A stretch of DNA of 64,000 nt. Source: a bacterium (lineage in GTDB: Bacteria; UBP6; UBA1177). The stretch lies in assembly GCA_017405875.1 (NCBI GenBank), contig JAFQZM010000038.1, positions 21,314 through 85,313 of the forward strand. Reading direction: 5' to 3'. Below the pieces are notes generated by a model. It saw only the letters and a list, made by a program, of their open reading frames with translations. It was not told the DNA's origin and searched no databases. Positions 15,487 through 51,672 of this stretch are shown here, piece after piece. The position numbers were made by a program, and so were the translations under genes. Position 1 is the stretch's first letter. Every line of letters starts with the position of its first letter.

Positions 15487-15524
15487 TGTAATATGCACCG
15501 GCTTTTTTGTTTGAGAGACTTTTC

Positions 15525-17152: not shown

Positions 17153-17167
17153 CCAGAGGAGGCGGAG

Positions 17168-18855: not shown

Positions 18856-18867
18856 GGAGGAGTGAAT

Positions 18868-20146: not shown

Positions 20147-20162
20147 TGGAACGGAGATTGGA

Positions 20163-28755: not shown

Positions 28756-29036
28756 AAAAAAACCAGAAATTTCTCATTATCGGTTTTTTATTTTTGGTAT
28801 TTTCAGCTGTCTGCATCTACGACATCCTTTCTTCTTACGGCGAATTCAACCGCAACAGGGACAAAATCAAGGTGATAGAAGAAAAGCAGTATGTCATAAG
28901 CCGTGAAAAAGATATCTTGAATTGGAAAATAGAGCGTTTTTCCAAAAATCCGAAGGCTGCCGAGGAAATTCTCAGGCAGAAATACAAAATGATTCGCTCA
29001 GATCAATACAAATACAGATATACACCCGAAAAATGA
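28752..29036 (+). CDS. FtsB/DivIC-like septum formation initiator family protein
   Basis: 94 aa with a TM, a coiled coil and a C-terminal NPKAAEEILRQKYKMIRSDQYKYRY that resembles FtsB DP.YIEE.AR..LGM..PGE. 4-nt overlaps on both sides. Confidence 0.5.
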   Translation: MKKNQKFLIIGFLFLVFSAVCIYDILSSYGEFNRNRDKIKVIEEKQYVISREKDILNWKIERFSKNPKAAEEILRQKYKMIRSDQYKYRYTPEK

Positions 29037-31051
29037 CAGCTTTACTTGAATTCCGCTTTTTCGGTCACATTGTGACCCTTTTGTTTTCTATCCTTTCAAT
29101 TTATTTCAAAGAAAGTATTCCGATTCTCATCATACTTTGGAGTGTTTTCGTTTTTTTGGTCATTTATCTCCGTCTCGTTGAAAAGAAGAGAATCCCCGTG
29201 CAGCTTTTTCTGCTTCCGGTATTCATCGTTTCCGGCGGAGTCGCGGGAAGTCCGGTCCTTCCGCTCCTTTTTCTTGCTCTGCCTCTGACTTTGCAGAAAA
29301 GTGACGACAGTTCATATATCGGATTTGCTGTGACTACGTTCATTCTGATGCTTTGCAGCGGCAATATTTCCGATTATTCCGATTTTATCATTTATGTTTT
29401 ATTCGTTTTTTCAGCGATAGGTGTCTGGTTTTTCATGAGAAAGGGCTTCTCGTTTCTGCTGGCTCAAGCGCCTGCCGCTCCGATCGCGATGAAATCCAAA
29501 GTGAGTATTCCGCTTGTCAAGGATCCTTTCAGACCGCTGAAAAAGTATCTTGTCCGCACCAGGAATTTTAACAACAGACCAGTGTACCTGCGCCTGGTCG
29601 TACTTTTGCCCGGCGGGACTGCGAAAATATACGAATCCGATACCGAGTTTGCGCTGAAAGGTCTTCTGTTCAGGGCTGTTCACGATAAAACCGAGGTCGC
29701 GACCAACGTTCTTCTGGATGACGACAGGGAAAACATTCCGATGATGCCTGAATACAACTTCAGAATATACTATCCGATTTCACTGGTCGATTCCGACGAT
29801 GTAACCCTTTTTGAGCCGGAATATGTCGTCGTTGTCGATACAAGCATTAAAGGAAAAATCGACAAGGAAGAACTTATTCAGAAGTTCTCCGAGATAAAGG
29901 ACGACGTTCTCGAACAGCTCAGACAGTCCGAAACTTTCAGTCATATTTCTGTTGAAAAACAGAGAAATGCCACGCTTTATCAGGAGACTTCGAATATTGT
30001 CGATGCTTTCGACCATGACGAACTTCTCAAAGCCGCGGCGCTTGCGATATTCAATCTCGCTCCGGAAGCGAGCTGTGTATTTGTTACGACAAAAGGTGAG
30101 GAAAACACTTTCTCGGGTTACTCTTTTACAGTCAGAGAGTTTTCCAAAGGTAAACCGAAACTTGAGATGTCCGATATAAACGATCCGGTTACTGCAGAAA
30201 TGAAGGATTCCCAGTCGATTCACGCGATGATGGTGAACGGAAAAATCGACGATTACTACGAAGCGGCAGACGTGAACAAACGTAAGTCGAAACCTATTTT
30301 CCCTGCAGAATTCGATGATCTGAACAAAAAAAGCTGCATTATGATCCGCTGCATGACCTTTAAAAACGACGTCAAAGGAACGATTTCGGTTCTCACCGAC
30401 ACGACGAATGATTTTGAAGAACTCAAAAAGCATTCCGCATCGGTCAGGATGATTTCAAAAGTCGTTACGTCGGCGCTCAACAATATCGAAATGTTCCAGA
30501 AGATGGAGGAACTTTCAAATGTTGACGGTTTGACAGGGCTTTACAACAGGCGCTGTTTCAACAATATGATCGAACAGAAAATCAGCGAAGCGGGCAGGAC
30601 TAAAGTTCAGCTTTCTATGATCATGCTTGACATCGACTTCTTCAAGAAAGTCAACGATACTTACGGTCACAAAGCGGGCGACGACGTTATCCGCTTTATT
30701 TCGGCAACGATAAAGAAATCGATCAGAAAAGTCGATTTTGCCGCGCGTTACGGCGGAGAAGAATTCGTAATCCTGCTTTACAACACATCTATTGCGGCAG
30801 CGGCTAATATTGCGGACAAAATCAGGAATATAGTCCGTGATTCAACGGTCAATGCCGACGGATCTCCGCTGAACATAACGATTTCGCTCGGTGTTTCATC
30901 TTTCCCGATGCCTTCGATGAATGCGGAAAGCCTTGTCAAAAACGCAGATACCGCTCTTTACTATTCAAAAGAACACGGCCGCGATCAGGCTTCTGTTTTC
31001 AACAGCAGCATGGATGAAAGGGACGACGAGGAAGAGGAAGCTGAGGAATAA
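29033..31051 (+). CDS. Membrane-bound diguanylate cyclase (multi-TM N-terminus, middle sensor-like region, GGDEF)
   Basis: RYGGEEFVILL active site with an intact RxxD-like I-site context. About 6 N-terminal TM helices. ATG at 29033 overlaps the FtsB-like stop. Confidence 0.8.
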   Translation: MTALLEFRFFGHIVTLLFSILSIYFKESIPILIILWSVFVFLVIYLRLVEKKRIPVQLFLLPVFIVSGGVAGSPVLPLLFLALPLTLQKSDDSSYIGFAVTTFILMLCSGNISDYSDFIIYVLFVFSAIGVWFFMRKGFSFLLAQAPAAPIAMKSKVSIPLVKDPFRPLKKYLVRTRNFNNRPVYLRLVVLLPGGTAKIYESDTEFALKGLLFRAVHDKTEVATNVLLDDDRENIPMMPEYNFRIYYPISLVDSDDVTLFEPEYVVVVDTSIKGKIDKEELIQKFSEIKDDVLEQLRQSETFSHISVEKQRNATLYQETSNIVDAFDHDELLKAAALAIFNLAPEASCVFVTTKGEENTFSGYSFTVREFSKGKPKLEMSDINDPVTAEMKDSQSIHAMMVNGKIDDYYEAADVNKRKSKPIFPAEFDDLNKKSCIMIRCMTFKNDVKGTISVLTDTTNDFEELKKHSASVRMISKVVTSALNNIEMFQKMEELSNVDGLTGLYNRRCFNNMIEQKISEAGRTKVQLSMIMLDIDFFKKVNDTYGHKAGDDVIRFISATIKKSIRKVDFAARYGGEEFVILLYNTSIAAAANIADKIRNIVRDSTVNADGSPLNITISLGVSSFPMPSMNAESLVKNADTALYYSKEHGRDQASVFNSSMDERDDEEEEAEE

Positions 31052-32597: not shown

Positions 32598-33368
32598 TTA
32601 AGATACTGTTATCGGACGTTTCTGCTTCATCGGGATGATTTTCATCGGGCTTTTGATGCTCTTTATGTCTGCGATGATCTCGTCTTCCAGATTGGGTTTC
32701 AGGTGGAAAGTATGGATTTCGCAGTGTCTGTTGATTTTTTCAAGTTCACCTGCAAGCTGTGAAGGCGTCAGGTGTTTCGACGCAGTTGCCAGCTTTTCGA
32801 GCCTGTTCGGGAAAGAAGTCTCCCAGCATATTGTTTTTATTGATGGATCGTTGTTTATATGATCAACGAAATTTTGGCATATCCCTGTGTCTCCGGAATA
32901 AGCGATAGTTTCTCCGTCCTTTTTGATGATGAAGCCGAGTGATTCAACGACATGGTTCACTTCGATCGGCAGAAACTCGATCCCTTCGATCGAAAAAGGC
33001 TCATCGAATTTTATAGGCTGAAACTTTATCGTCGGGTTTTTTCTAGTCGGCAGCTTCGTGAAATCAGGCCAGACAAGGTCGTTGAAGATGTTGTCCATTA
33101 TCTGTGCCATGATGTTTTCGGTCGTATAAACCGTGAACGAATGGTTTCCGAGAGAAAGCATGAAATCGGCGAAAATCGGCAGATTTTTGATGTGGTCGAA
33201 GTGGCAGTGCGTGATTATGACGTGTTTTATCGCAAGCAGCTGGTTCGTATCAAGCGATGACATGATCGAACCTGTGTCGATAACGGTCGTAGGTGTAACG
33301 AGCATGGAAATACACTTTTTATTTTCAAGATCGCTGCCGTAGCAACCAAGCGGAACTATGGAAAGCAT
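32598..33368 (-). CDS. MBL-fold hydrolase, class-II 3',5'-cyclic-nucleotide phosphodiesterase-like
   Basis: THCHFDHIKNL matches the H-x-H-x-D-H class-II PDE/MBL signature. Confidence 0.55.
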   Translation of the reverse strand: MLSIVPLGCYGSDLENKKCISMLVTPTTVIDTGSIMSSLDTNQLLAIKHVIITHCHFDHIKNLPIFADFMLSLGNHSFTVYTTENIMAQIMDNIFNDLVWPDFTKLPTRKNPTIKFQPIKFDEPFSIEGIEFLPIEVNHVVESLGFIIKKDGETIAYSGDTGICQNFVDHINNDPSIKTICWETSFPNRLEKLATASKHLTPSQLAGELEKINRHCEIHTFHLKPNLEDEIIADIKSIKSPMKIIPMKQKRPITVS

Positions 33369-34750: not shown

Positions 34751-34812
34751 CCGCCGCTCACTAAGGTCCTTAGGGTCCTTAAGGTCCTTAAAGTCCTTAA
34801 GGTTGGCGGCGG
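34751..34812. repeat. 4.5 tandem copies of the palindromic 9-mer AAGG(T)CCTT, flanked by a GC inverted repeat (GCCGCCG / CGGCGGC)
   Basis: aaggtcctt agggtcctt aaggtcctt aaagtcctt aaggttggc at 34763-34807. Each unit is near self-complementary (CCTTAAGG cores). It lies between the divergent CaCA gene and gspC. Confidence 0.8.
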
Positions 34813-34847: not shown

Positions 34848-34878
34848 CAAAATGTCAATTTGCCGAATTGACATTTTG
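34848..34878. promoter_or_regulatory. Perfect 13-bp inverted repeat (5-bp spacer) with TTGACA on both strands; candidate operator and divergent -35 elements
   Basis: CAAAATGTCAATT-tgccg-AATTGACATTTTG. It lies about 90 bp upstream of gspC and about 165 bp upstream of the divergent exchanger gene. Confidence 0.45.
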
Positions 34879-34969
34879 GGTTGTTTTGCAACTTATTGAT
34901 TTTATTGGTAATTTTTTTTGGCACTTGAGTTGCTTAAATAATCGGTTTTTGTTTTTTGCGAGGTGTGCT

Positions 34970-35944
34970 TTGAAAAGCAGAACGGTTTTAAATATAGCTT
35001 TGTTCATCGCGATTGCGGCAGCGGTGCTTTCGTTTATAGGTTTTCTGCTCGCTTTCGTCGTTAAAGGTGAACAGGTTTATGTACCGGTAGGCAAAAATTA
35101 TTATAAAACGCTTGAAGGAACTACGACGGAAGAAAAAAAAGAGAATTTTTATTTCGGCAAAAATCCCAATAATATGAGTTCGGCGAATATTTTTGATTCT
35201 TCGTCGCGTATGATAGCTCTAACCGAGCAGCATAGCACTGAAACGGTTGAAGAGGGCGACATTGTTCCAGAGATGAGTAAGGAAGATATTTATTTTTATC
35301 TTGAAAATCCTGACAAATGCGTGCTTCTGCCGGGTTACGAACTTACCGGAACCATCGTTGCGAAGGACAATGACTTCTCGTTCGCAATTCTCAAAGGCGG
35401 CAAAGGAAGTACTGGCGGAGCGGTCACGAGAACCGGTGCGGAAGTTCAGGATGGCGTAATTCTCGCTTTTGTCTGGAGAAATATCGCGATTTTCAGAACG
35501 ACAAGCGGCATAAAATGCATCGGTGAAGGTGTAGGAGAAGGAAAACCTGTACCTGTTCCGGAAGCGCCTAAAGTTGCAGGCGAACCTCAGCAGCCGAAAG
35601 GTGACGACGACTTCGACATCAGAAATGTCGGACCTAACCAGTATGTCGTAAAACGTGCCGATCTCAACAAGGCAACGGGAAATCTGGGCGCGCTGGCGTC
35701 TCAGGCCCGTATCGTTCCTTCCGCAAAAGACAACGGATTCAAGATTTTTTCGATAGCAAAAGACAGTCTTTACACAAAGATAGGAATACAGAACGGCGAT
35801 GTTCTCAAGTCGATAAACGGCATCGAACTTTCAAGCCCGGACAAGGCGCTCGAGGCTTATTCGAGGCTGCAGAGTGCGTCCAAACTCTCGCTTGACATCG
35901 TAAGAAAAGGGCAGAATGAAACATTGGAATATACGATAGAATAG
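34970..35944 (+). CDS. gspC: Type II secretion system protein GspC-like (N-terminal TM, C-terminal PDZ)
   Basis: TTG at 34970 follows GAGGTG. TM helix IALFIAIAAAVLSFIGFLLAF. C-terminal PDZ GIQNGDVLKSINGIEL. It is immediately upstream of the secretin. Confidence 0.5.
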   Translation: MKSRTVLNIALFIAIAAAVLSFIGFLLAFVVKGEQVYVPVGKNYYKTLEGTTTEEKKENFYFGKNPNNMSSANIFDSSSRMIALTEQHSTETVEEGDIVPEMSKEDIYFYLENPDKCVLLPGYELTGTIVAKDNDFSFAILKGGKGSTGGAVTRTGAEVQDGVILAFVWRNIAIFRTTSGIKCIGEGVGEGKPVPVPEAPKVAGEPQQPKGDDDFDIRNVGPNQYVVKRADLNKATGNLGALASQARIVPSAKDNGFKIFSIAKDSLYTKIGIQNGDVLKSINGIELSSPDKALEAYSRLQSASKLSLDIVRKGQNETLEYTIE

Positions 35945-35953
35945 GAGGCATAA

Positions 35954-38560
35954 ATGCTGAATCTGAAAAAGATAATTTTTCTGACAGCTCTGATCGCTTT
36001 TTCGTTTGTTTATCTTCCGGCTGAGGAAGTGGCGGAAGCTGACAATGTGAAAGTTCCGATCAATCTCAACAGCAAATTTAAACCGATAAATTCAGGCAAA
36101 AAGTTTAACAACAATTTGAAGCTCGGCAGGCCTGTTGCAGCGGAAAAGAAAGCTGATGAAGAGAATAAGGATGAAAAAAAGGACGAAAAGCAGGAAGAGA
36201 ACAAACTGGCAGAAAATGCGGCTCAGCCGAAAAACAACAGTAATAACAGCGATGTAAGAACGGTAACGCCTCCGCAGCCGAAAACGATTCTCAACAAAGA
36301 ACAGCCGAAAACTCCGGAAGACAACAAACTTCTGGATGCCGTAAAAGTCGAAATCAACGAACCGAAAGCGGCAAATATGGATCTCAAAATCAGGCTCGAC
36401 TTCAAAGACGAAGAGCTTATGAATGTCGTTAAACTCTTTTCCGATCTGCTCCAGAAAAATTTCATAATTCCGGAAAATCTGGGCAAGGCGAAAATCAATC
36501 TTCTCTCTCCGCAGAAAGTTACGGTCAGAGAGGCTTATAAAACGTTCCTCACCCTTCTTGCAGTCAACGATTTCAGTGTTTCTGAGGACGGTTCCTACAC
36601 GATAATCACGAAGGAAAAGAATATTCCGGAGATGAAAATCCCTTTTTACAAGGGAACTGACGTGCCCGATCTTTTCAAGATGGTTGCGACCATTATGAAG
36701 TTTGAATACGTCACGGCAGGCGACATTGACAAGGTTTTGAAGCTTTTCAGAGACAAAGGTGCGACTTCGGTCGTTTTCGACGACAAGACTTTGATCGTTG
36801 TCGATTACGCGGCTAATATCAGAAAAATCATGACTCTGGTCAAAGAGCTCGACCAGCCTTCCGAATCGGATAAGGCAGAGCTTTACTTCATCAAACTCAA
36901 CCACGTTCTTGCAGCAGATGCCCGCAAAATCATTGAAGATATTTTTAAGGATTTCTCCAAAAAGGGAACCAAGAAAGGGAAAAACAACGACAATACTCCT
37001 TCTCTCGGCGGTGTAGGAAAACAGGCTGAAGGAAACAACAATAACAACAACAGGTTTCCGCCGCGTCCTCCGTTTCCTCCTAACTGGGGCAGTCAGGATG
37101 ACGGCGAAGGTTTGAGTGAAACTTACATCCATATCGTTGCCGACGAAAGAAGCCAGCAGATAATCGTTCTGTGCAACAAGGCGACTTACAATCTGATTCT
37201 TCAGGTCGTTCAGAATATTGACCGCGAAGTCGAAGGCGAGGGCGAAATCCATGTCGTAAAGCTTCAGAACGCAAAAGCTGAAGATATGCTTAAGACATTG
37301 AATTCACTGTCGAAAAACAAAAAAGCGTCAGGTTCTTCCAAAAGCGGAAACAAAGGAACAGACGTTTTTGAAGGCGACGTTCAGATTTCTGCAAACGAAT
37401 CGACGAACTCCCTCGTTGTCGTTTCTTCGCTGCAGGATTTCAGGAACCTCAAAAAAGTTGTTGAAAAACTCGATGTAAAGCGCAAACAGGTTTTTGTCGA
37501 AGCGGCTATTCTCGAAGTCAGCATAGACAACGGTCTGGAATACGGCAACGCATACAGTGCGATGGGTTATGAAGTTACGATCGCCGGCGAAAAGGTTCCT
37601 CTTTTCTTCGGAAAGGCTCTCTCTTCGCCGACTCCCGGACTCGTTGCCGGCATGGTTGGTGCTTCGGTTGACGGAACAGCCGGACTTCCCGGTCTTTCCC
37701 TTGTAGACGGAATTCCTTCGATCGGACTCATTTTGAACGCGGCGCAGAACGATTCGACGGTAAACGTAGTTTCGACACCGCACCTTCTCACGACCGATAA
37801 CGAAGAGGCCGAGATCACAGTCGGTGAAACGGTTCCGTTCCCGTCGGGAAACATTCTTACCAGCACGACAGGAAGTACGATAACCTACACCCGTGAAGAC
37901 GTTGCGCTCAAACTCAAAATAAAACCGCAGATCAACGAATCGGGCTACATGACTCTTGAAATCAATCAGGAGATGACGGAACTCGGCGCGCAGACTGACT
38001 ACGGTTATAAAACGACCAAAAGACAGGCGAAGACCAAGATCAATGCTGAAAACGAACAGACGATAGTCATCGGCGGACTTATGAAGGATACGGTCACTGA
38101 AGGCGAGAACAAGATCCCGATCCTTGGTGACATTCCGGTTATCGGAAATCTTTTCAAGTATAAAAAAATCAATAAAACCAAAGTAAACCTTCTTCTTATC
38201 CTCACTCCTCACGTAGTTGACAGCAAAGAGGATTTTGAGCGCATTCTCCGTAAGAAAATGGAGGAACGTGATGAGTTCGCGAGAAAGTATTACGGCGGTG
38301 ACACCACGTTCGAAGAAACGGTTTACCTCGACAAAAGACGCGGAGCGCTTCTTTCGGTCGTAAATGCTGTCAACACTCAGCAGGCTTTCGAAAAAGAGGA
38401 ACTGAAAAGGATCGAAGCGGCTAACAAGAAGGAAAATTCGATAATGGTCACTCCGGACGGCGAAGAAAAACTCATCGAAAATTCTGATGAATCTTCCAAA
38501 AAAGGGAAGTCAAAAGATGCCGAAGACGAACTTGTTCCCGATATTGACGAAGAGGATTAG
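35954..38560 (+). CDS. gspD: Type II secretion system secretin GspD
   Basis: 868 aa with N0-N3-like domains, a secretin core (GETVPFPSG...VIGGLMKD...IPILGDIPVIGNLFK) and a C-terminal acidic tail. AGGAGG RBS. Confidence 0.8.
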   Translation: MLNLKKIIFLTALIAFSFVYLPAEEVAEADNVKVPINLNSKFKPINSGKKFNNNLKLGRPVAAEKKADEENKDEKKDEKQEENKLAENAAQPKNNSNNSDVRTVTPPQPKTILNKEQPKTPEDNKLLDAVKVEINEPKAANMDLKIRLDFKDEELMNVVKLFSDLLQKNFIIPENLGKAKINLLSPQKVTVREAYKTFLTLLAVNDFSVSEDGSYTIITKEKNIPEMKIPFYKGTDVPDLFKMVATIMKFEYVTAGDIDKVLKLFRDKGATSVVFDDKTLIVVDYAANIRKIMTLVKELDQPSESDKAELYFIKLNHVLAADARKIIEDIFKDFSKKGTKKGKNNDNTPSLGGVGKQAEGNNNNNNRFPPRPPFPPNWGSQDDGEGLSETYIHIVADERSQQIIVLCNKATYNLILQVVQNIDREVEGEGEIHVVKLQNAKAEDMLKTLNSLSKNKKASGSSKSGNKGTDVFEGDVQISANESTNSLVVVSSLQDFRNLKKVVEKLDVKRKQVFVEAAILEVSIDNGLEYGNAYSAMGYEVTIAGEKVPLFFGKALSSPTPGLVAGMVGASVDGTAGLPGLSLVDGIPSIGLILNAAQNDSTVNVVSTPHLLTTDNEEAEITVGETVPFPSGNILTSTTGSTITYTREDVALKLKIKPQINESGYMTLEINQEMTELGAQTDYGYKTTKRQAKTKINAENEQTIVIGGLMKDTVTEGENKIPILGDIPVIGNLFKYKKINKTKVNLLLILTPHVVDSKEDFERILRKKMEERDEFARKYYGGDTTFEETVYLDKRRGALLSVVNAVNTQQAFEKEELKRIEAANKKENSIMVTPDGEEKLIENSDESSKKGKSKDAEDELVPDIDEED

Positions 38561-38562
38561 TC

Positions 38563-40257
38563 ATGGCAGCAAGGCGCAAAATAGGTGAACTTCTCGTCGA
38601 AAAAGGCTATATCGACGAGGCTGCGCTTTCCGAAGCCCTTGCAGCGCAGCACGCAGATAGAATGGGAACCGGCAAAATCGGTCAGCTTCTCGTTTCGGAA
38701 GGCAAAGTTACCGCTGAGCAGGTGACGGAAGTCTTTTCTGAGCAGAGCGGGATAAAACTCGTTACAGATGAAGACTTGAAAAAGCTTGATCCGGCAGTAC
38801 TCGGCGAATTTCCGATAGCTCTGGCGAAAAAATTCAAAGCGCTTCCTCTTTATGCCGATACTGACCTTCATGTCGTCATCACCGACATAGATATGCTGCT
38901 TTTCAACCAGCTTTTCATGATTTACCGCAAAAACGTCGTTTCGCTTCTTGTAACTCCGACCAAAATCAACGACATGATAAATCAGGCTTACAGCAGCGTT
39001 GACAACAAGGAGGAGGCTCTTAACGCCGAGGAGTTCGGCAAAATGGCGGACGAGGACGATACGATCCCCGACCTTATCGACTCCAACGACGACGCGCCTA
39101 TTATCAAGTTCGTGAACAACACGATCGCAAAGGCTGTAAAGGAAAAAGCGAGTGATATTCACTTTGAATCCTACGAAGACGAAGTTATCGTCCGTTTCAG
39201 AAAAGACGGCAAACTTTCAGTTGTTCAGCGCGTTCCGAAGGCTGCTCAGGCCGGTCTCATCACGAGAATCAAGATTATGAGCCGGCTCAACATTTCTGAA
39301 AAAAGGCTGCCGCAGGACGGAAACATCAAGGTCAAAATCGCCGGAAACGACATCGACTTCCGTGTTTCGACTCTTCCGAGCGTCCACGGCGAATCGATAG
39401 TTCTCCGTATTCTGGATAAAAGATCACAGAAACTTTCTCTTGACGAAAGCGGTTTCACGAAACGCGACCTTGAGATGATGAGAAAGATAATCCACATGAA
39501 ACACGGAATTTTTCTCGTCACCGGACCTACCGGAAGCGGTAAAACGACGACGCTTTATTCTGCTTTAACCGAGATAAATTCGCCTGATGTCAAGATAATC
39601 ACGGTCGAAGACCCGGTCGAGTATCAGATCAAAGGTGTTAACCAGATTCACATCAATTCCAAGATCGGTCTTACTTTCGCAAGCGGTCTCCGTTCGATTC
39701 TCCGTCAGGACCCGGATATCATCATGGTCGGTGAGATCCGTGATAAAGAGACGGCTGATATTGCTATCAACGCGTCGTTAACCGGTCACCTTGTTTTCTC
39801 GACGCTCCACACGAACGATGCTCCGACGGCATTCACCCGACTTATCGATATGGGAATCGAACCTTTCCTTATTTCTTCAACTGTCGTCGGCGTTCTTGCC
39901 CAGAGACTTGTAAGAAAGCTCTGCCCCGCCTGCAAAGAGGCTTACTATCCGCCGGCGGCTATTCTTGAAGAACTCGGACTTGATCCGAAAGAATACGCAA
40001 ATCATCCGTTCTACAAGGCTGTAGGATGCCCTGAATGCGGATATTCGGGATATAAGGGAAGAAGCGGTATTTTCGAACTTCTGATGATCGACGAAGAGCT
40101 GCGTCGTGCAGTTGTTGCACGTCAGGACGCAAGCGATATCCGCAAAATAGCCGCTTCAAACGGAATGCTCAATCTCCGTGAAGACGGTGCACTCAAGGCG
40201 ATAAAGGGAATAACCTCGCCCGAAGAAGTCCTTCTCAGAACGCAGGAGGATAAGTAA
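38563..40257 (+). CDS. gspE: Type II secretion/MSHA-type ATPase GspE with an N-terminal tandem MshEN (c-di-GMP-binding) domain
   Basis: Walker A GPTGSGKTTT, Asp/His boxes and a CPAC...CPEC tetracysteine. N-terminus has KIGELLVEKGYIDEAALSEALAAQ and KIGQLLVSEGKVTAEQVTEVFSEQ. Confidence 0.85.
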   Translation: MAARRKIGELLVEKGYIDEAALSEALAAQHADRMGTGKIGQLLVSEGKVTAEQVTEVFSEQSGIKLVTDEDLKKLDPAVLGEFPIALAKKFKALPLYADTDLHVVITDIDMLLFNQLFMIYRKNVVSLLVTPTKINDMINQAYSSVDNKEEALNAEEFGKMADEDDTIPDLIDSNDDAPIIKFVNNTIAKAVKEKASDIHFESYEDEVIVRFRKDGKLSVVQRVPKAAQAGLITRIKIMSRLNISEKRLPQDGNIKVKIAGNDIDFRVSTLPSVHGESIVLRILDKRSQKLSLDESGFTKRDLEMMRKIIHMKHGIFLVTGPTGSGKTTTLYSALTEINSPDVKIITVEDPVEYQIKGVNQIHINSKIGLTFASGLRSILRQDPDIIMVGEIRDKETADIAINASLTGHLVFSTLHTNDAPTAFTRLIDMGIEPFLISSTVVGVLAQRLVRKLCPACKEAYYPPAAILEELGLDPKEYANHPFYKAVGCPECGYSGYKGRSGIFELLMIDEELRRAVVARQDASDIRKIAASNGMLNLREDGALKAIKGITSPEEVLLRTQEDK

Positions 40258-41486
40258 TGCCGCTTTTTGCCTACAAAATAGTCGATGCAAACGGCAAAGA
40301 GAAGAAGGGAACGATCGAAAGTCCGAACAAAGCGGCAGTAAAAACGAAATTCCTTTCGGAAGGCTACTACATCACCGAAATCAGCGAAAAATCGGGTGCA
40401 CAGGGTTTCAGTCTCGATTTTTTGCGGAAAATGTTCTCTTTCGGCGCAAAAAAAGTGCCGCTTGACGAAGTTGCCTCGATGACAAGGCTTTTAGCTACGC
40501 TCCAGAAGGCGAAGATTCCGCTTGTCGAAGCGATCGACGCGGTCGCGCAGCAGCAGGAAAATCCTATAATGAAGGACGCCCTCATCATCATCAAGGGAAA
40601 GATGAACGAAGGTTACAGCTTCAGTAAAAGCGCGCGTGAATTCCCCAATATTTTTGATGACTTGTTCTGTAACATGATTGCGGCAGGAGAGGAATCGGGT
40701 GCGACTGACAAAGTTCTTATGAGACTTGCCGGATTCATGGAATCACAGGTCGATCTCAAAAACAAAGTCAAAAGTGCGATGACTTACCCGATAGTCCTCA
40801 TGATTGTCGCTATTCTGGTTGTCGGTGTTCTTTTCACGGTCGTAATCCCGAAACTTTCCAAAATGTTCGAAGATGTCAAAATGTCTCTGCCGATTCAGAC
40901 GAAAATCCTTCTCTGGCTTTCTGGTTTCATCGGAAGCTGGTGGTGGCTCATAGCGCTCATGATTTTCGGCGGTATCGTCGCTTTCAACAAATATGTCAAA
41001 ACTCCGAAAGGGGAAATATGGTGGAGCAGAGTCAAGATCAATGCTCCTGTTCTGGGCAGAGTCAACAGACAGGTTGCTATCAGCCGTTTCGCACAGACTC
41101 TTTCGACTCTTCTTCACTCCGGTGTTCCGATTCTGAACGCACTTGATATCGTCAAAAAGATCATTGACAACAAAATTCTTGAAAACGCTGTCGGAGTTGC
41201 CCGCGAAAACATCAAGGAAGGTGAATCGATCGCTCTTCCTCTCAAAAGAAGCGGCGAATTTCCGCCCATCGTAATCCAGATGATAGCGATCGGCGAGCAG
41301 AGCGGCGAACTTGAAGAAATGCTTGAAACTCTGGCTAATTCATACGAAAAGGAAGTCACATACACGATGGAAAAACTCACTTCGATGCTCGAACCGATGA
41401 TGATCGTTGCTCTTGCAGGAGTCATCGGCTTCATCGTTTTCTCGGTCGTCATGCCGATCCTCCAGCTCAACGACGCAGTCGGATAA
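40257..41486 (+). CDS. gspF: Type II secretion inner-membrane platform protein GspF
   Basis: 409 aa with two GspF/PilC repeats and 3 TM helices. ATG overlaps the gspE stop. Confidence 0.85.
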   Translation: MPLFAYKIVDANGKEKKGTIESPNKAAVKTKFLSEGYYITEISEKSGAQGFSLDFLRKMFSFGAKKVPLDEVASMTRLLATLQKAKIPLVEAIDAVAQQQENPIMKDALIIIKGKMNEGYSFSKSAREFPNIFDDLFCNMIAAGEESGATDKVLMRLAGFMESQVDLKNKVKSAMTYPIVLMIVAILVVGVLFTVVIPKLSKMFEDVKMSLPIQTKILLWLSGFIGSWWWLIALMIFGGIVAFNKYVKTPKGEIWWSRVKINAPVLGRVNRQVAISRFAQTLSTLLHSGVPILNALDIVKKIIDNKILENAVGVARENIKEGESIALPLKRSGEFPPIVIQMIAIGEQSGELEEMLETLANSYEKEVTYTMEKLTSMLEPMMIVALAGVIGFIVFSVVMPILQLNDAVG

Positions 41487-41568: not shown

Positions 41569-42024
41569 ATGGACAGAATAAAATCGGTTGCAAAAAACAA
41601 AAAGGCTTTCAGAGCTTACGAAATTCTTGATAAACTCGAAGCGGGAATCGTTCTTCAGGGAACGGAAATAAAGTCGATCAGAGAGGGCAATGTTTCGTTC
41701 AGAGACAGCTTCATCGACATCATAAACGGTGAAATGTGGCTTGTCGGTTTCTACATCGCGCCCTACAATGCCGGAAGCATCTGGAATCACGCCGCAGACA
41801 GGCGCAGAAAACTGCTTCTCAACAAGCGTGAGATCAGAAAATGGGATGCCAAAGTGCGCGAAAAAGGCTTCACGGTCGTGCCGATAGAGATCTATTTCAA
41901 AAACGGCAGGGCGAAAATGGAGATCGGACTTGCACGCGGAAAGACTTCGTTTGACAGAAAGGACGACCTGAAAGAAAAAGATATTAAGAAGGATAGCGAA
42001 AGATTTACCGAGAAATACAGATGA
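41569..42024 (+). CDS. smpB: SsrA-binding protein
   Basis: MDRIKSVAKNKKAFRAYEILDKLEAGIVLQGTEIKSIR is the SmpB signature. ATG at 41569. The track start is TTG. Confidence 0.85.
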   Translation: MDRIKSVAKNKKAFRAYEILDKLEAGIVLQGTEIKSIREGNVSFRDSFIDIINGEMWLVGFYIAPYNAGSIWNHAADRRRKLLLNKREIRKWDAKVREKGFTVVPIEIYFKNGRAKMEIGLARGKTSFDRKDDLKEKDIKKDSERFTEKYR

Positions 42025-43197: not shown

Positions 43198-43222
43198 CTT
43201 ATTAATTTGATTGGAGATTGTT

Positions 43223-44254
43223 TTGGAAGTTGTCCGCAGATTCAGAAATCACTACTTTCTTTACTGTTACCTGCTTTTCCTTTGCATTATAGGTTCGTGT
43301 AACCTCAAAAATTCACATCAGGATCCGGAAGAAAGGGAAGGGGTCGAGGATATTGACGAAGATCTTGGCGAAGACGATGACGGTGTTGCCGGTTTCGATG
43401 CGGCAAATACCGGAAACGATACCGCTTTTGATGAAAGAGACGATATTGAAGTTGAAGATGAGGCAATTTTGACTGATGATGACGCCGTTTATGATGATGA
43501 AGTTGTGAATAACGACGATACCGGAAAGGATTTTCCCGATATGACCGGAACATGGGCAAATCTCACGATTTTCAAAGGTTCGGCAAAGGTCCCTCTTCTT
43601 GAAACCCTTCCTGCCTGGGCGGTAATGGTTTCAAAAGTTGACATACATTCTCAGGAAAACGGCATTCTGAGTGCTCACACCGAAATGTGCCGCCTCAAAA
43701 CAGGCGTAGGTACTTCTTTGATTTCAGCGGTGGTTCCTGACAGTTTCGCCGAAAGTCTCGGCAATGTAGATAAAACTTTTTATCTTTCTTACGGGGAAAA
43801 CGGTGAAATAAGATTTCATCAGGACAAGCTCTGGGAAGTGCGCTCATGCACTCTTGATGACCCCGAAAACGAAGATCTTCCGGCAGAAATTGATGATCCG
43901 AGGGTTTTCGATGCAGACGGAACAGGAATCAACGGTCTTAAAATAATGACGAAAAAAGCCATAGAGGGTGAGGCGGAGATACTCCAGAAAGTGAGCACGA
44001 TTCTGAACGGCGAACTTGACGAGAACGGCGAAGTTCACGGTATCGTGACATGGTTCGAGGCTCAGAGTGTCATGTGGTACAGCAATGCGCTTCTGAAAGA
44101 CGGTGCACCGACTTCTCCGGCAGGTGCCGATCCGAATGAAAGTGTTTTTATTTTCAAGAGAATAGACTCATCATGGGACTGCACGGCTGTAAAAGAAAAC
44201 AGTGCCGCGCTTTTTCCCGAGCAGGCTGCACTTTATCCTAAAGAATTTCAATAG
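43223..44254 (+). CDS. Hypothetical secreted or lipoprotein with a poly-acidic N-terminal linker
   Basis: TTG at 43223 follows GGAG. The signal-like RRFRNHYFLYCYLLFLCIIGSC is followed by a D/E-rich stretch. No known domain. Confidence 0.45.
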   Translation: MEVVRRFRNHYFLYCYLLFLCIIGSCNLKNSHQDPEEREGVEDIDEDLGEDDDGVAGFDAANTGNDTAFDERDDIEVEDEAILTDDDAVYDDEVVNNDDTGKDFPDMTGTWANLTIFKGSAKVPLLETLPAWAVMVSKVDIHSQENGILSAHTEMCRLKTGVGTSLISAVVPDSFAESLGNVDKTFYLSYGENGEIRFHQDKLWEVRSCTLDDPENEDLPAEIDDPRVFDADGTGINGLKIMTKKAIEGEAEILQKVSTILNGELDENGEVHGIVTWFEAQSVMWYSNALLKDGAPTSPAGADPNESVFIFKRIDSSWDCTAVKENSAALFPEQAALYPKEFQ

Positions 44255-46370: not shown

Positions 46371-47801
46371 TTAGTCTTTCTCGTCTTTAATGCCGAGTTT
46401 GCTCATGCGGTATCTGAGCATTCTTTCAGTCAAATTAAGCAGAACGCAAGTGTCGTGACGGTTGTAATTTGTCTTTTTAAGTGCTTTAATTATATAGCGT
46501 TTTTCAATATCTGCCAAAATTTCGTCAAGATCTACGTTGTGAGAGAGGTCAACTTCGAAAGGATTGGATTTTGCGGTTTGCGGTTGAGCCATTGAAGGCA
46601 TCGTCTTTTCAAAGTGGGTCTCGGTAATAAGCCCGTCTTTCGCGAAAATTGTGCCGCGCTCGACGATGTTTTTGAGTTCCCTGACGTTACCTGGGAATGT
46701 GTAGTGATTCAAAAAGTTGAGAGTTTCTTCGGAAAATCTGAAATTTGTCCCCGTTTTCTTTGAAAACTGATCCAGAAACATGTTGGCAAGCGGCATTATG
46801 TCGGCGCGTCTTTCGGCAAGCGGCGGGATGTAAAGCTCGATTACATTCAGGCGGAAATATAAGTCTTCACGGAACTTTCCTTTTTTGATCTGCTCCTGAA
46901 GATTTTTGTTTGTTGCCGCGATAAGGCGTACTCCGGTCGGTATTTTTTCGGTGCCGCCGACTCTTGTGAAAACGCGCTCTTGAAGTACGCGGAGCAGTTT
47001 TACCTGCATGTTTTCACCGAGTTCGCCGATTTCATCCAGGAAAAGTGTGCCGTTTCCGGCTACTTCGAAGTAACCTTTTTTTGTCTGGTATGCACCGGTG
47101 AAAGAGCCTTTTTCATGACCGAAAAGTTCGCTTTCAAGAAGGTTTTCTGGGATCGCGCCGCAGTTTATCGGATACCACGGAAGTTCGCCGCGGCCGCTGT
47201 GTTTGTGGATGAAGTTGGCGAGAACTTCCTTTCCCGTTCCGCTGTCGCCGGTGATGAGAACCGTGCTGTCGGTCGGAGCGATGCGGAGTGCGAGTTCGAG
47301 GATTTTTTTCATCTGCGGGCTCTGCGCCACGATTCCGGTCTCTTCTGAAATATTCTGAAAATCGGTGTCAATCCGCTTTGTTTGCTGCACGGTTTTTGCG
47401 GGTTCGCTGTTTTTCTGCGTCTGTGCCGCCGCAACGCACTTTTTAACGATGTCGCGGATTTCTGCGACGTTGAAAGGTTTGCTGACATAGTCGACTGCAC
47501 CGAGTTCGATCGCCTTTATCGCCTGCTCGGTCGAAGCGTATGCGGTGATGACGATGACCTGTGATTTCGGGCTTGTGTGGAGAAGTTCGTTCAGAAGATC
47601 GATTCCGTCAATTGCCTCAGGCATATTGTAATCCATTAGAATTACTGTGAATTTTTCTTCTTTCAGTTTGTTTAGAGCGATTTCTCCGTTTTCTGCCGTC
47701 GTAACGTCATAGCCGTCTTTTTTCAGCAGAATCTGCAGAAACTGACGCATGCTGAGTTCGTCGTCAATAACTAAGATTTTAACTTTTTCGGATATCTCCA
47801 T
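46371..47801 (-). CDS. pilR: Sigma-54-dependent response regulator (NtrC family), PilR-like
   Basis: REC domain (ILVIDDE...D), an AAA+ sigma-54 activator with GSFTGA (GAFTGA variant) and a C-terminal Fis-type HTH. It overlaps the upstream sensor kinase by ATGA. Confidence 0.8.
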   Translation of the reverse strand: MEISEKVKILVIDDELSMRQFLQILLKKDGYDVTTAENGEIALNKLKEEKFTVILMDYNMPEAIDGIDLLNELLHTSPKSQVIVITAYASTEQAIKAIELGAVDYVSKPFNVAEIRDIVKKCVAAAQTQKNSEPAKTVQQTKRIDTDFQNISEETGIVAQSPQMKKILELALRIAPTDSTVLITGDSGTGKEVLANFIHKHSGRGELPWYPINCGAIPENLLESELFGHEKGSFTGAYQTKKGYFEVAGNGTLFLDEIGELGENMQVKLLRVLQERVFTRVGGTEKIPTGVRLIAATNKNLQEQIKKGKFREDLYFRLNVIELYIPPLAERRADIMPLANMFLDQFSKKTGTNFRFSEETLNFLNHYTFPGNVRELKNIVERGTIFAKDGLITETHFEKTMPSMAQPQTAKSNPFEVDLSHNVDLDEILADIEKRYIIKALKKTNYNRHDTCVLLNLTERMLRYRMSKLGIKDEKD

Positions 47802-49372
47802 TATTTTGCCTTGGGTTTAAAATCAATAATAATTCTGGCACCTTTTTCGGTATTTGTCGCTTTTATCGAGCCGCCGTGCTTTGTGACTATTCTGTAAACG
47901 AGAGCGAGCCCCAAACCGGTTCCGCGCTTTTTTGTAGAAAAAAACGGATCAAAAATTTTGTCGATATTTTTTTCATTGAAACCAGAGCCTGTGTCATCGA
48001 AGTAAAGTTTGAAAGAATTGTCGGTCACTTCGGAAAATATGTCGATTTCACCTTCGTCATTCATCTCCTCAGCGCTGTTCGTCATGATGTTCCAGAACAC
48101 CTGTTTCAACTTTTCTGCGTCTCCGAGAACCGAAAACTCATCAACTTTGCAGGTGATTTTGACTTTCGGATGACCTAATTTGAAAAGAGTGACAACGTCG
48201 CTCAGGATCGAGCTCGGAACGCATTCCATCAGGGTATAGGAAGTTTCTTCAGTGTACCTGAAAAGAGAGTCAAGCAGGGTTTTGACGCGTGTTCCTTCAC
48301 GCCGGATGATGTCAATGAGCTCGGTCGTGTCAGATTCTGGCTGGATTTCCTGAATCTCGGAAAACATGAGTTCGCTCGCTCCGATGAGGCTCGTGAGGGG
48401 ATTTTTTATCTCGTGGGCGATAGTTGCCGTGAGTCTTCCGATCGTAGCCAGTTTTTCCTGAAGCTCGAAACTTTCCTCCTGCTTCCTGATGGCGGTAAGG
48501 TCTGAAAATATAACGACTTTCTGGTTTTCTATGTACGGCATTACCGTGTAGGAAAGCCAGATACCGTCAAATTTTTTCTCCGACCACGCGCCGTTTGAAG
48601 CAGTGTCTTTAGTTGCTTCGGCTAAGAATTTATCGAGAATGTTTTCGAACTGTTCCGCGTATCTGTTCACGTAAAATTTCGTATTTTCGTCAAAAATTAC
48701 GATACCGATGTTTATCTGCGAAAATATTGCGAAAAAGTGTTTTTCCATCTCTTTGTTTCTGCGCGTTGATTCGATCAGGGAGCTGTTAGCCTGACGGAAA
48801 CTTTTCGTGATCCTGCTTGCTACGAAACCTGTGAAAGAAAAGAAGAGAAGGTAAGTGAAAAGACGCGAAAAGTACGATTCCCACGAAGCAGAGTAGGTTT
48901 TCACAAGTTCTGAAGTTATGAGCGGAAGGAAGGAAAACTTTACGGAAACGCCTTGCAGAAGCAGCAGAAAGAAAGCGTAAAGCGTCGTGATTATTGCACC
49001 TTTTTCACGCATCAGAATGCCGGCATAGATGATGTTTATGATTATTACGTAAAGGTATGGCGAGCTTATACCGCCGCTTATGTACGAAACCAGAACCCAG
49101 AACGTGATTTCTACGACAAACTGCAAGTGTGCGAAAAGAGTTAGATATTTTTCACGAATGAATCGGTTGACAGTCAGTGAAACTATGTTGAAAACAAGCA
49201 GAAAAAATGCTGAAATGAGAAAAAGTTTGTTTGCAAATGAAAAAATATCGTTGTTTTCGCTTATGAAAGGAAAAACGAAAAACGAAAATATGACGGTGAA
49301 AATGAAGAAAAATCGTATTATGAGATAGTAACTTAGGTGATTGCGGAATTCGTCCGCCGAGAGAAGGTTCAT
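47801..49372 (-). CDS. pilS: Membrane sensor histidine kinase, PilS-like
   Basis: About 6 N-terminal TM helices. H-box ATIAHEIKNPLTSL. ATP-lid DDTGSGF and GTGLGLALV. Confidence 0.7.
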   Translation of the reverse strand: MNLLSADEFRNHLSYYLIIRFFFIFTVIFSFFVFPFISENNDIFSFANKLFLISAFFLLVFNIVSLTVNRFIREKYLTLFAHLQFVVEITFWVLVSYISGGISSPYLYVIIINIIYAGILMREKGAIITTLYAFFLLLLQGVSVKFSFLPLITSELVKTYSASWESYFSRLFTYLLFFSFTGFVASRITKSFRQANSSLIESTRRNKEMEKHFFAIFSQINIGIVIFDENTKFYVNRYAEQFENILDKFLAEATKDTASNGAWSEKKFDGIWLSYTVMPYIENQKVVIFSDLTAIRKQEESFELQEKLATIGRLTATIAHEIKNPLTSLIGASELMFSEIQEIQPESDTTELIDIIRREGTRVKTLLDSLFRYTEETSYTLMECVPSSILSDVVTLFKLGHPKVKITCKVDEFSVLGDAEKLKQVFWNIMTNSAEEMNDEGEIDIFSEVTDNSFKLYFDDTGSGFNEKNIDKIFDPFFSTKKRGTGLGLALVYRIVTKHGGSIKATNTEKGARIIIDFKPKAK

Positions 49373-50562: not shown

Positions 50563-50565
50563 TTT

Positions 50566-51663: not shown

Positions 51664-51672
51664 TTTTTACCT

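What the first reader, a model, noticed from the sequence alone, without database searches (positions are those of the whole stretch)
34970..41486. T2SS-like gspCDEF core without pseudopilin genes, with an ATPase carrying a textbook tandem MshEN c-di-GMP receptor domain
The GspE N-terminus contains two copies of the 24-residue MshEN motif R-L-G-x2-L-L-x2-G-x-I-x4-L-x3-L-x2-Q. They read KIGELLVEKGYIDEAALSEALAAQ and KIGQLLVSEGKVTAEQVTEVFSEQ, separated by an 8-aa linker. Only the conservative R-to-K and L-to-I substitutions differ from the consensus. This predicts high-affinity c-di-GMP binding, so secretion or pilus-like fibre assembly is probably gated by the second messenger. A membrane GGDEF cyclase lies 7 kb upstream. 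The cluster has GspC with a PDZ, the secretin, the ATPase and the platform protein. No gspG-K pseudopilins or prepilin peptidase follow, because smpB comes next. Its identity as T2SS, MSHA-like or a hybrid is open. The separate PilB at 51673-53430 has only a degenerate version of the motif.
Basis: partly seen in the sequence, partly recalled or inferred. Interest (0 to 1): 0.6.

Follow-up and report, generated by a model that had tools for sequence, protein, structure and literature searches.

The report
Split type II secretion operon, c-di-GMP-sensing ATPase
This is the first half (gspC-D-E-F) of an ordinary type II protein-secretion system in an uncultured rumen bacterium; the pseudopilin half appears to have been moved elsewhere in the genome, and the motor ATPase carries the known c-di-GMP-binding MshEN domain that most ATPases of its subfamily carry.

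Summary
The genes gspC (34970-35944), gspD, gspE and gspF are contiguous and smpB follows. No pseudopilin gene lies anywhere in the 64 kb. The GspE N-terminus has two 24-residue MshEN motifs, and a curated HMM (NF053729, residues 6-61, 48.6 bits against a cut-off of 38) recognises them.

The open questions mostly close in an ordinary way. This is a T2SS, not an MSHA or hybrid system. Relatives whose GspE is 66-87% identical have complete gspC-to-N operons. Within this genus (rumen MAGs labelled candidate phylum UBP6) the operon has been cut after gspF in many species. There gspG-N sits as a separate unit next to unrelated genes.

A roughly 115-bp cassette precedes gspC here. It holds a palindrome, then 66 bp downstream a perfect sigma-54 promoter. 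The same cassette precedes gspG in every genus member, so the two halves probably stay co-regulated.

The tandem motif is a trait of the subfamily: 78 of 84 homologues match the HMM. Lysine at motif position 1 is experimentally compatible with nanomolar binding. An AlphaFold model matches c-di-GMP-bound MshEN (TM 0.78-0.81).

c-di-GMP binding is likely but untested, and its effect on secretion is unknown. This is a new member of a known kind, of low to moderate interest.

The parts
34853..34873 (+). Palindrome TGTCAATTTGCCGAATTGACA, with an overlapping TGACAAAATGTCA just upstream. Putative enhancer (UAS) for a sigma-54 activator.
   Evidence: Only match in the window, 0.01 expected by chance. 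The same element, at the same 66-bp distance from a sigma-54 promoter, lies upstream of gspG in all same-genus loci.
34919..34934 (+). Sigma-54 promoter TGGCAC-N5-TTGCT, 36 bp upstream of the gspC start.
   Evidence: Perfect match to the consensus. Allowing one mismatch it is the only match in the 64 kb, but about 1.4 such matches are expected by chance, so the support comes from conservation. It is conserved upstream of gspC in all six assemblies returned and upstream of gspG in relatives.
34970..35944 (+). gspC (324 aa, TTG start). Inner-membrane T2SS component with a C-terminal PDZ-like domain.
   Evidence: NF041515 GspC_delta, 187.6 bits against a cut-off of 150. PDZ_2 E 3.5e-5. The start was set by alignment to the 324-aa GspC of relatives.
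35954..38560 (+). gspD, outer-membrane secretin (868 aa) with low-complexity N- and C-terminal extensions.
   Evidence: TIGR02517, 447 bits against a cut-off of 351. N0, three Secretin_N domains and a Secretin domain.
38563..40257 (+). gspE, T2SS assembly ATPase (564 aa).
   Evidence: T2SSE 1.9e-142. TIGR02533 627 bits (cut-off 630.25) is the best family, above PilB at 590 bits against 675.65. Walker A, the tetracysteine motif and other catalytic columns are invariant in an alignment of 109 sequences.
38578..38649 (+). MshEN motif I, residues 6-29: KIGELLVEKGYIDEAALSEALAAQ.
   Evidence: G8, L11 and Q29 are at least 90% conserved.
38650..38673 (+). 8-residue linker HADRMGTG between the motifs (the canonical spacer is 5 residues).
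   Evidence: The 8-residue linker occurs only in relatives at least 94% identical; the 80% group has 5 residues. This loop has lower pLDDT, about 71-73.
38674..38745 (+). MshEN motif II, residues 38-61: KIGQLLVSEGKVTAEQVTEVFSEQ.
   Evidence: G40, L43 and Q61 are at least 90% conserved.
38746..39003 (+). MshEN C-terminal alpha/beta subdomain, residues about 62-147, equivalent to the GspE N1 domain that docks on GspL.
   Evidence: Pfam PF05157 matches residues 68-146. The AlphaFold model has three strands plus helices. Foldseek matches 5HTL, 8PDK and, for this part only, EpsE-N1 (2bh1, 4pht).
40257..41486 (+). gspF, inner-membrane platform protein (409 aa). Last gsp gene of this half-operon.
   Evidence: T2SSF 1.2e-64. 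TIGR02120 422.2 bits against a cut-off of 424.
41569..42024 (+). smpB. This marks the break point where gspG follows in sister species.
   Evidence: PF01668 9.5e-56. Same neighbour in the six assemblies returned.
29033..31051 (+). Membrane diguanylate cyclase (GGEEF motif, RxxD I-site). Context only: it shows the cell can synthesise c-di-GMP.
   Evidence: PF00990 1.5e-46. Motifs read from the translation. It is not next to the gsp operon in the two relatives examined upstream.

Best explanation
The region is the promoter-proximal half (gspC-D-E-F) of a conventional 'delta-type' type II secretion system. The host is an uncultured rumen bacterium whose relatives carry record titles naming candidate phylum UBP6.

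In this genus a copy of the gspC regulatory cassette (palindromic enhancer plus sigma-54 promoter) was inserted between gspF and gspG. That made gspG-N a transcription unit of its own. In many species, this one included, rearrangements then separated the two units. The pseudopilin, GspL/M/N-like and remaining genes therefore lie elsewhere in the genome, and both halves keep the same cassette.

GspE has the standard architecture of this GspE subfamily:
- an N-terminal four-helix MshEN_N bundle built from two 24-residue motifs, which binds one c-di-GMP;
- an N1-like alpha/beta subdomain;
- a flexible linker;
- the hexameric ATPase.

Most likely mechanism: the machine is made when a sigma-54 activator fires both cassettes. 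Whether the ATPase engages productively with the GspL/F platform is then tuned by c-di-GMP binding at the N-terminus, with high c-di-GMP favouring pseudopilus assembly and secretion.

Shown here: gene identities, the split, the shared cassette, motif conservation and the predicted fold.
Inferred: c-di-GMP binding, from homology to proteins with measured binding.
Speculative: the direction of the effect, the identity of the activator, and the presence of gspG-N in this very genome.
For: T2SS identity: GspC_delta and GspD pass their equivalog cut-offs. GspE and GspF score within 3 bits of theirs, and those are their best-scoring families.

Ancestral full operon: gspC-D-E-F-G-H-I-J-K-L-M-N in relatives with GspE 80% identical (L009, L010) and 66% identical (L007), and gspE-F-G contiguous in nine more distant species representatives (L031-L039).

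Split: among the 10 complete species-representative loci whose GspG is at least 95% identical to P0141, 8 have no gspF within 6 kb upstream of gspG (L021, cut 1.2 kb upstream, also shows the HD neighbour) and 2 have gspE-F-G contiguous. The upstream neighbours differ: an HD gene, an MmeI-family enzyme, a CDP-alcohol phosphatidyltransferase, purC. The downstream neighbour of gspF also differs: smpB here, an epimerase in L099. The window's order is reproduced in the six assemblies returned.

Shared cassette: UAS, 66 bp, then TGGCAC-N5-TTGC upstream of gspC in the window and upstream of gspG in every same-genus locus that holds the upstream region. The alignment is about 80% identical over about 115 bp. 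The cassette is absent between gspF and gspG in more distant genera.

c-di-GMP site:
- NF053729 match above cut-off.
- phmmer alignment to c-di-GMP-bound MshE 5HTL and PilF GSPII-B.
- G3, L6 and Q24 of both motifs are at least 90% conserved in 109 homologues, while the x positions vary.
- 78 of 84 homologues match NF053729.
- AlphaFold model of residues 1-149: pLDDT 91.6, four helices plus an alpha/beta subdomain. Foldseek TM 0.78-0.81 to 5HTL and 0.72-0.78 to 8PDK.

Literature:
- The motif and the 53-residue domain are defined, and affinities of 14 nM to 0.5 uM measured, in PMC5013675.
- A T2SS ATPase (PA14_29490) binds c-di-GMP through this domain (PMC4624772).
- K or L at motif position 1 gives higher affinity, KD 6 nM, and the consensus was extended to (R/K/L)LG (PMC11731258).

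c-di-GMP synthesis capacity: an intact GGEEF cyclase lies in the window.
Against: - No binding experiment exists for this protein.
- The inter-motif linker is 8 residues instead of 5.
- Motif II has V54 and F58 where MshE has the two leucines that pack against the second guanine, and K at position 11. Affinity could therefore be lower than 'high'.
- The fold alone is not diagnostic. The non-binders XpsE-N (2d28) and X. citri PilB-N (7lkm) also match.
- I could not place a gspG-N operon in the same MAG (GCA_045130895.1) as the window. Look-ups of five GspG variants returned other MAGs and samples, so its presence in this genome is inferred from genus-wide presence.
- For MshE, c-di-GMP changed ATPase activity by less than 10% in vitro (PMC5013675), so the regulatory step is unknown.
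- The sigma-54 promoter and the UAS are sequence predictions only.
Confidence: 0.8

Rival explanations
1. The MshEN_N bundle of this GspE is a structural remnant that no longer binds c-di-GMP, as in Xanthomonas XpsE. The T2SS would then be controlled only at the level of transcription.
For: The 8-residue linker and the V54, F58 and K48 deviations in motif II. Non-binding XpsE-N has the same fold. Some members of the same lineage (P0036-P0040) have clearly lost the motifs, so loss does happen.
Against: XpsE lost binding through radical changes (G11V, L29R, R38G, G40L, L54H, Q61V; PMC5013675). None of these occurs here: every glycine and glutamine and all hydrophobic positions are kept or conservatively replaced. 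The NF053729 score is above its cut-off. The key positions are under purifying selection across 109 homologues.
Confidence: 0.15
2. gspCDEF is a reduced, self-standing module that has lost its own pseudopilins. It works with the type IV pilins and prepilin peptidase of the neighbouring Pil system as a hybrid secretion/pilus machine, roughly the first reader's open reading.
For: No pseudopilin gene in 64 kb. pilMNOPQ and pilBTC-pilSR lie in the same window. I did not find gspG-N in the same MAG.
Against: Every genus-level species representative returned by the GspG scan has a gspG-N operon, mostly relocated. That operon carries a duplicate of the very cassette that precedes gspC here, which argues for joint use. 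No pilin gene lies in the window either. No precedent is known to me.
Confidence: 0.04
3. The apparent split is a mis-assembly or mis-binning, and gspG really follows gspF in this organism.
For: Very close relatives (L101-L103; the last 206 residues of GspE are 99-100% identical) do have gspF-gspG contiguous.
Against: The six assemblies returned, from different samples and assemblers, give gspF-smpB on contigs of 50-157 kb. The reciprocal junctions (another gene followed by gspG) are also assembled many times on contigs up to 296 kb. GspF of L101-L103 is only 93% identical to the window's, so they are different species.
Confidence: 0.01

Closest known systems
Pseudomonas aeruginosa PA14_29490, a T2SS-operon ATPase with a c-di-GMP-binding T2SSE_N/MshEN domain (PMC4624772, PMC5013675)
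   Same: A GspE-branch ATPase encoded in a T2SS gene cluster. It has an N-terminal MshEN domain with tandem motifs, and binding was localised to the N-terminal fragment (KD about 0.5 uM).
   Different: Different phylum. I did not compare the two sequences directly. Here the operon is split, motif position 1 is K/K, and the linker is 8 residues. No binding data exist for the window protein.
Vibrio cholerae MshE / MshEN (PDB 5HTL)
   Same: Same 53-residue-type binding module and two-subdomain fold (Foldseek TM 0.78-0.81; phmmer E 2e-5). Motif II starts at residue 38 in both.
   Different: MshE drives an MSHA type IV pilus, not a T2SS. The window's secretin fails the MshL model. MshE has R at position 1, a 5-residue spacer, and L54/L58 where the window has V54/F58.
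Thermus thermophilus PilF GSPII-B domain (PDB 8PDK, 8PKZ; PMC11731258)
   Same: Lysine at position 1 of motif I, and no arginine needed for recognition. It was the best phmmer domain match and the top Foldseek hits.
   Different: PilF is a T4P/DNA-uptake ATPase with three tandem GSPII domains. GSPII-B has L at position 1 of motif II, and that motif is one residue shorter.
Leptospira interrogans GspE LIC_11571 (PMC12943098)
   Same: A GspE inside a T2SS cluster, identified in silico as that genome's single MshEN-domain c-di-GMP receptor candidate.
   Different: Bioinformatic prediction only. Spirochaete. The cluster is not reported as split.
Xanthomonas campestris XpsE (PDB 2D27, 2D28)
   Same: A T2SS GspE with the same N-terminal fold.
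   Different: XpsE has lost the key residues and does not bind c-di-GMP (PMC5013675). The window protein keeps them.

Membership tests
Type II secretion system (Gsp) | Outer-membrane secretin of the GspD type | tested here: met
   TIGR02517 equivalog, 447 bits against a cut-off of 351.35. N0, three Secretin_N domains and a Secretin domain.
Type II secretion system (Gsp) | GspC (inner-membrane, HR region plus PDZ or coiled coil) linking platform and secretin | tested here: met
   NF041515 GspC_delta equivalog, 187.6 bits against a cut-off of 150. The Pfam PDZ match is weak.
Type II secretion system (Gsp) | GspE ATPase and GspF platform protein | tested here: inconclusive
   TIGR02533 627 bits against 630.25, and TIGR02120 422.2 against 424. 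Both are the best-scoring families but fall 2-3 bits under the curated cut-offs. All 84 homologues scanned match TIGR02533 at E 0.001 or better.
Type II secretion system (Gsp) | Major and minor pseudopilins GspG-K (and GspL/M) encoded with the system | tested here: not met
   Absent from the window. Present directly after gspF in sister species and genera, and as a relocated gspG-N operon in most species of the genus. Presence in this exact genome could not be checked. This concerns gene location, not the nature of the machine.
Type II secretion system (Gsp) | Prepilin peptidase (GspO/PilD) | not tested
   None seen among the annotated genes of the window. The rest of the genome was not available.
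MshEN c-di-GMP receptor domain | Two tandem 24-residue motifs (R/K/L)LGxx(LVI)(LVI)xxG(LVI)(LVI)xxxxLxxxLxxQ | tested here: met
   Residues 6-29 and 38-61. NF053729 matches over its full length (1-53 of 53), 48.6 bits against a cut-off of 38. Deviations: K1 and I2 in both motifs, Y11 in motif I, K11/V17/F21 in motif II.
MshEN c-di-GMP receptor domain | 5-residue spacer giving a 53-residue module | tested here: not met
   The spacer is 8 residues (HADRMGTG), giving a 56-residue module. Relatives at 80% identity have 5. The model keeps the four-helix bundle with a lower-confidence loop.
MshEN c-di-GMP receptor domain | Four-helix MshEN_N bundle followed by an alpha/beta MshEN_C subdomain | tested here: met
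   AlphaFold2 model, pLDDT 91.6: helices at 7-13, 19-31, 39-45 and 51-62, then three strands plus helices. TM 0.78-0.81 to 5HTL. This is a prediction, not a structure.
MshEN c-di-GMP receptor domain | Specific binding of c-di-GMP | not testable with these tools
   Needs ITC or DRaCALA with the purified N-terminal domain.
MSHA type IV pilus system | MshL-type secretin and msh gene context | tested here: not met
   TIGR02519 MshL 99.6 bits against a cut-off of 250.2. The neighbours are gspC and gspF, and gspG-N in relatives.
Type IVa pilus assembly ATPase PilB | Equivalog-level match and pil gene context | tested here: not met
   TIGR02538 590 bits against a cut-off of 675.65 for GspE. A separate true PilB (780.7 bits) with pilT and pilC lies at 49369-53430.

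The most novel reading that the evidence does not exclude
In this rumen genus the T2SS would be under a two-tier switch. A duplicated enhancer/sigma-54 cassette lets one activator drive two physically separated half-operons. The same second messenger, c-di-GMP, would gate the machine at the ATPase and perhaps also control the activator (FleQ/VpsR-like). That would form a feed-forward loop tying secretion of fibre-attachment or degradative proteins (for example the many Lcl_C-domain proteins encoded nearby) to surface colonisation.
Probability: 0.12. Interest if true: 0.5.

Novelty: new member of a known kind. Interest (0 to 1): 0.25.

Why it matters
The practical value is modest.
- It gives a clean, testable candidate c-di-GMP receptor, and a T2SS, in an uncultured rumen lineage whose relatives are labelled candidate phylum UBP6.
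- It shows that MshEN-type GspE is the rule, not the exception, in the 'delta-type' T2SS subfamily (78 of 84 homologues).
- It offers a tidy natural example of how an operon can be split without losing co-regulation, by first duplicating its sigma-54/enhancer cassette.

It does not reveal a new kind of secretion machine or a new kind of receptor.

Tried and rejected
- Looked for pseudopilins in the window with a six-frame prepilin-motif regex and with tblastn of GspG-N from two relatives. Nothing found.
- Tried to place gspG-N in the same MAG or sample as the window. I looked up five GspG variants (P0141, P0163, P0170, P0146, P0133) and one close GspE variant (P0010). All were in other MAGs or samples, so the link to the same genome was not achieved. 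The single genome-contig scan did not return GCA_045130895.1, which is presumably not a species representative.
- Checked whether flanking genes of the relocated gspG loci occur in the window. Only an unrelated paralogous CDP-alcohol transferase matched.
- Searched Rfam for a c-di-GMP riboswitch or any other RNA family in the 64 kb. None found.
- The generic sigma-70 promoter and terminator scan of the cluster was no better than shuffles.
- Pfam's MshEN model turned out not to cover the binding motifs, so it is not the right test. NCBIfam NF053729 is.
- MSHA and PilB identities were considered and rejected on equivalog scores and context.
- A functional link to the nearby GGDEF gene was considered and not adopted, because the adjacency is absent in the two relatives examined upstream.

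Full report
**What is there.** Between 34970 and 41486 the + strand carries four tightly packed genes, with gaps of 9 bp and 2 bp and then a 1-bp overlap.
- gspC is 324 aa with a TTG start. It matches NCBIfam GspC_delta NF041515 at 187.6 bits against a cut-off of 150, and has a weak C-terminal PDZ.
- gspD is 868 aa and matches TIGR02517 at 447 bits against 351.
- gspE is 564 aa, with T2SSE at E 1.9e-142.
- gspF is 409 aa, with T2SSF at E 1.2e-64.
- smpB follows after about 80 bp.

GspE and GspF score 2-3 bits under the curated equivalog cut-offs, but GspE and GspF are clearly their best families. The secretin fails the MshL model (99.6 against 250). A separate true PilB (780.7 bits), pilT, pilC, pilS and pilR lie at 46371-53430, and pilMNOPQ at 17168-22574. 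The cluster is therefore a T2SS, not an MSHA or type IV pilus system.

**The motif.** The GspE N-terminus reads MAARR-KIGELLVEKGYIDEAALSEALAAQ-HADRMGTG-KIGQLLVSEGKVTAEQVTEVFSEQ.
- NCBIfam's dedicated model for the MshE-type binding module (NF053729, 53 positions) matches residues 6-61 end to end, E 5e-13, 48.6 bits against a cut-off of 38.
- Pfam's 'MshEN' model covers only residues 68-146, the C-terminal subdomain. It says nothing about the binding site.
- phmmer aligns the N-terminus with c-di-GMP-bound MshE (5HTL) and PilF GSPII-B (8PDK).
- An AlphaFold2 model of residues 1-149 (pLDDT 91.6) has four helices at 7-13, 19-31, 39-45 and 51-62, followed by a three-stranded alpha/beta subdomain. 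It superposes on 5HTL with TM 0.78-0.81 and on 8PDK with TM 0.72-0.78.
- The fold is shared by the non-binder XpsE-N and by X. citri PilB-N. The sequence motif, not the fold, is therefore the informative part.

**How 'textbook' it is.** Against RLGxx(LVI)(LVI)xxG(LVI)(LVI)xxxxLxxxLxxQ (PMC5013675), both motifs have K at position 1 and I at position 2.
- Motif I also has Y at position 11.
- Motif II has K at position 11, V at 17 and F at 21.
- The spacer is 8 residues, not 5.
- The K is not a concern. In PilF GSPII-B, K167 at this position contributes to a KD of 6 nM, the K167R mutant binds about 15-fold worse, and the consensus was extended to (R/K/L)LG (PMC11731258).
- V54 and F58 replace the two leucines that pack against the second guanine in MshE (PMC5013675). 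They are hydrophobic and typical of the lineage: F in 16 and L in 15 of 34 sequences; V in 17 and L in 11 of 34.
- None of the radical changes that inactivated XpsE is present.
- I consider binding likely (about 0.8) but its affinity unknown.

**Not a peculiarity of this protein.** In an alignment of 109 homologues, G8, L11, Q29, G40, L43 and Q61 are at least 90% conserved while the 'x' positions vary freely. Those homologues are 48-98% identical and their source names include Deltaproteobacteria, Myxococcales and Nitrospirales. 78 of 84 homologues scanned match NF053729. A small sub-lineage (P0036-P0040) has lost the motifs. MshEN-bearing T2SS ATPases are already described: PA14_29490 binds c-di-GMP through this domain (PMC4624772), and Leptospira GspE was flagged in silico (PMC12943098).

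**Where the pseudopilins are.** None is in the 64 kb, and the gene order gspF-smpB is reproduced in the six assemblies returned.
- Relatives with GspE 80% and 66% identical have full operons gspC-D-E-F-G-H-I-J-K-L-M-N plus one further gene.
- A GspG-based scan of species-representative genomes found the lineage in rumen MAGs of buffalo, yak, reindeer and deer. Their titles read 'bacterium UBP6_UBA1177', 'uncultured Spirochaetales' and similar.
- Among the 10 complete representative loci with GspG at least 95% identical to P0141, 8 have gspG-N without gspF upstream and 2 have gspE-F-G contiguous. An eleventh, L021, is cut 1.2 kb upstream but shows the same HD neighbour.
- All nine more distant representatives (L031-L039) have gspE-F-G contiguous.
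- The relocated gspG-N units have at least four different upstream neighbours: an HD gene, an MmeI-family enzyme, a CDP-alcohol phosphatidyltransferase and purC.
- gspF also has different downstream neighbours: smpB here and an epimerase in L099.

The window therefore shows one half of a split operon. I could not retrieve the other half from the same MAG, so its presence in this genome is inferred from its presence in every genus member found.

**A shared regulatory cassette (new observation).**
- 36 bp upstream of gspC lies a perfect sigma-54 promoter, TGGCACTTGAGTTGCT (34919-34934). Allowing one mismatch it is the only match in the window, although about 1.4 are expected by chance.
- 66 bp upstream of that lies the palindrome TGTCAATTTGCCGAATTGACA (34853-34873; 0.01 expected by chance).
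- The same two elements at the same 66-bp spacing lie directly upstream of gspG in every same-genus locus that holds the upstream region. This is true whether gspG still follows gspF (a 150-bp spacer) or has moved.
- The alignment is about 80% identical over about 115 bp.
- More distant genera have about 16-30 bp between gspF and gspG and no internal cassette. L007 has a sigma-54 promoter upstream of gspC only.

The simplest history is as follows. The operon was sigma-54 dependent. In this genus its enhancer-promoter cassette was duplicated in front of gspG, which made gspG-N autonomous. Later rearrangements could then separate the halves without uncoupling their expression. The activator is unknown. 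A PilR-type sigma-54 activator is encoded at 46371-47801, but I have no evidence that it is the one.

**Mechanism proposed.** Transcription of both halves is switched on by a sigma-54 activator binding the palindrome (inferred from sequence). The assembled machine is then tuned by c-di-GMP binding to the GspE four-helix bundle. That bundle sits next to the N1-like subdomain, which in Vibrio EpsE docks on GspL; Foldseek matches 2bh1 and 4pht for this part. By analogy with MshE, where c-di-GMP binding is required for MshA pilin export and pilus function (PMC4624772), and with a report that c-di-GMP directly controls MSHA pilus extension and retraction (abstract of PMC7096442, seen), I expect c-di-GMP to favour pseudopilus assembly and secretion. 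This direction is a guess. In vitro, c-di-GMP barely changes MshE ATPase activity (PMC5013675). The window's GGEEF cyclase shows that the messenger is made, but its proximity is not seen in the two relatives examined upstream. There is no c-di-GMP riboswitch or any other Rfam family in the window.

**Verdict.** The machine is an ordinary T2SS whose operon is split. Its ATPase is a new, untested member of the known MshEN-type c-di-GMP receptor class, which is the norm for this GspE subfamily. Novelty: new member of a known kind. Interest is about 0.25, helped a little by the duplicated sigma-54 cassette.

Noticed in passing
window 34853-34934; also L011 9868-9949, L101 1874-1955, L105 2371-2453, L111 2376-2457: A roughly 115-bp cassette (palindrome TGTCAATTTGCCGAATTGACA, then 66 bp downstream a sigma-54 promoter TGGCAC-N5-TTGCT) precedes gspC in the window. 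A copy about 80% identical precedes gspG in all same-genus loci, split or not. It is a duplicated enhancer/promoter that probably allowed the operon to be split.
   Followed up: yes
window 34762-34803: 9-bp tandem repeat TAAGGTCCT x 4.7 in the intergenic region between the Na/Ca exchanger gene and gspC. Gene-caller lengths for 'GspC' differ among assemblies (404, 407, 408 and 324 aa), which suggests copy-number variation. The true GspC start is the TTG at 34970.
   Followed up: partly
window 12016-15453 (+); L011-L017, L123 and L126 flanks: A 1145-aa protein with ZU5 and three Lcl_C domains. Several Lcl_C-domain proteins also cluster next to the relocated gspG-N operons in relatives. Legionella Lcl is a T2SS-dependent adhesin (from memory), so these are candidate cargo.
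   Followed up: no
window 17168-22574 (+): pilM-N-O-P-Q embedded among shikimate-pathway genes (aroA at 15507-16808; aroC, aroK and aroB at 22574-25079). No pilin gene is present anywhere in the window, and none follows pilSR.
   Followed up: partly
window 46371-53430 (-): pilB-pilT-pilC-pilS-pilR block. PilB's MshEN_N motifs are degenerate (G3 replaced by T and K; no NF053729 match). In this organism the T2SS ATPase, not the pilus ATPase, looks like the MshEN-type c-di-GMP receptor.
   Followed up: partly
window 32598-33368 (-): Metallo-beta-lactamase-fold protein matching class-II cAMP phosphodiesterase (PF02112). In the precomputed annotations of the same gene it also matches Anti-Pycsar Apyc1. 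It is a possible cyclic-nucleotide phosphodiesterase lying between the GGDEF gene and the gsp cluster.
   Followed up: no
window 53581-56670 (+), 56908-59961 (-), 60044-62611 (-): Two convergent proteins of about 1020 aa with DUF11/DUF7619 repeats, and an 855-aa subtilase (Peptidase_S8). They are probably surface or secreted proteins.
   Followed up: no
window 35954-38560: GspD has a long K/E/N-rich low-complexity N-terminal region (about residues 40-140), an internal N/P-rich stretch (about 345-380) and an acidic C-terminal tail of about 100 residues beyond the secretin domain. Function unknown.
   Followed up: no
window 25076-26086 (+), 43211-44254 (+), 16805-18172 (-): ORFs of 336, 347 and 455 aa with no Pfam match. 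The last overlaps pilM on the opposite strand and is probably not a gene.
   Followed up: no
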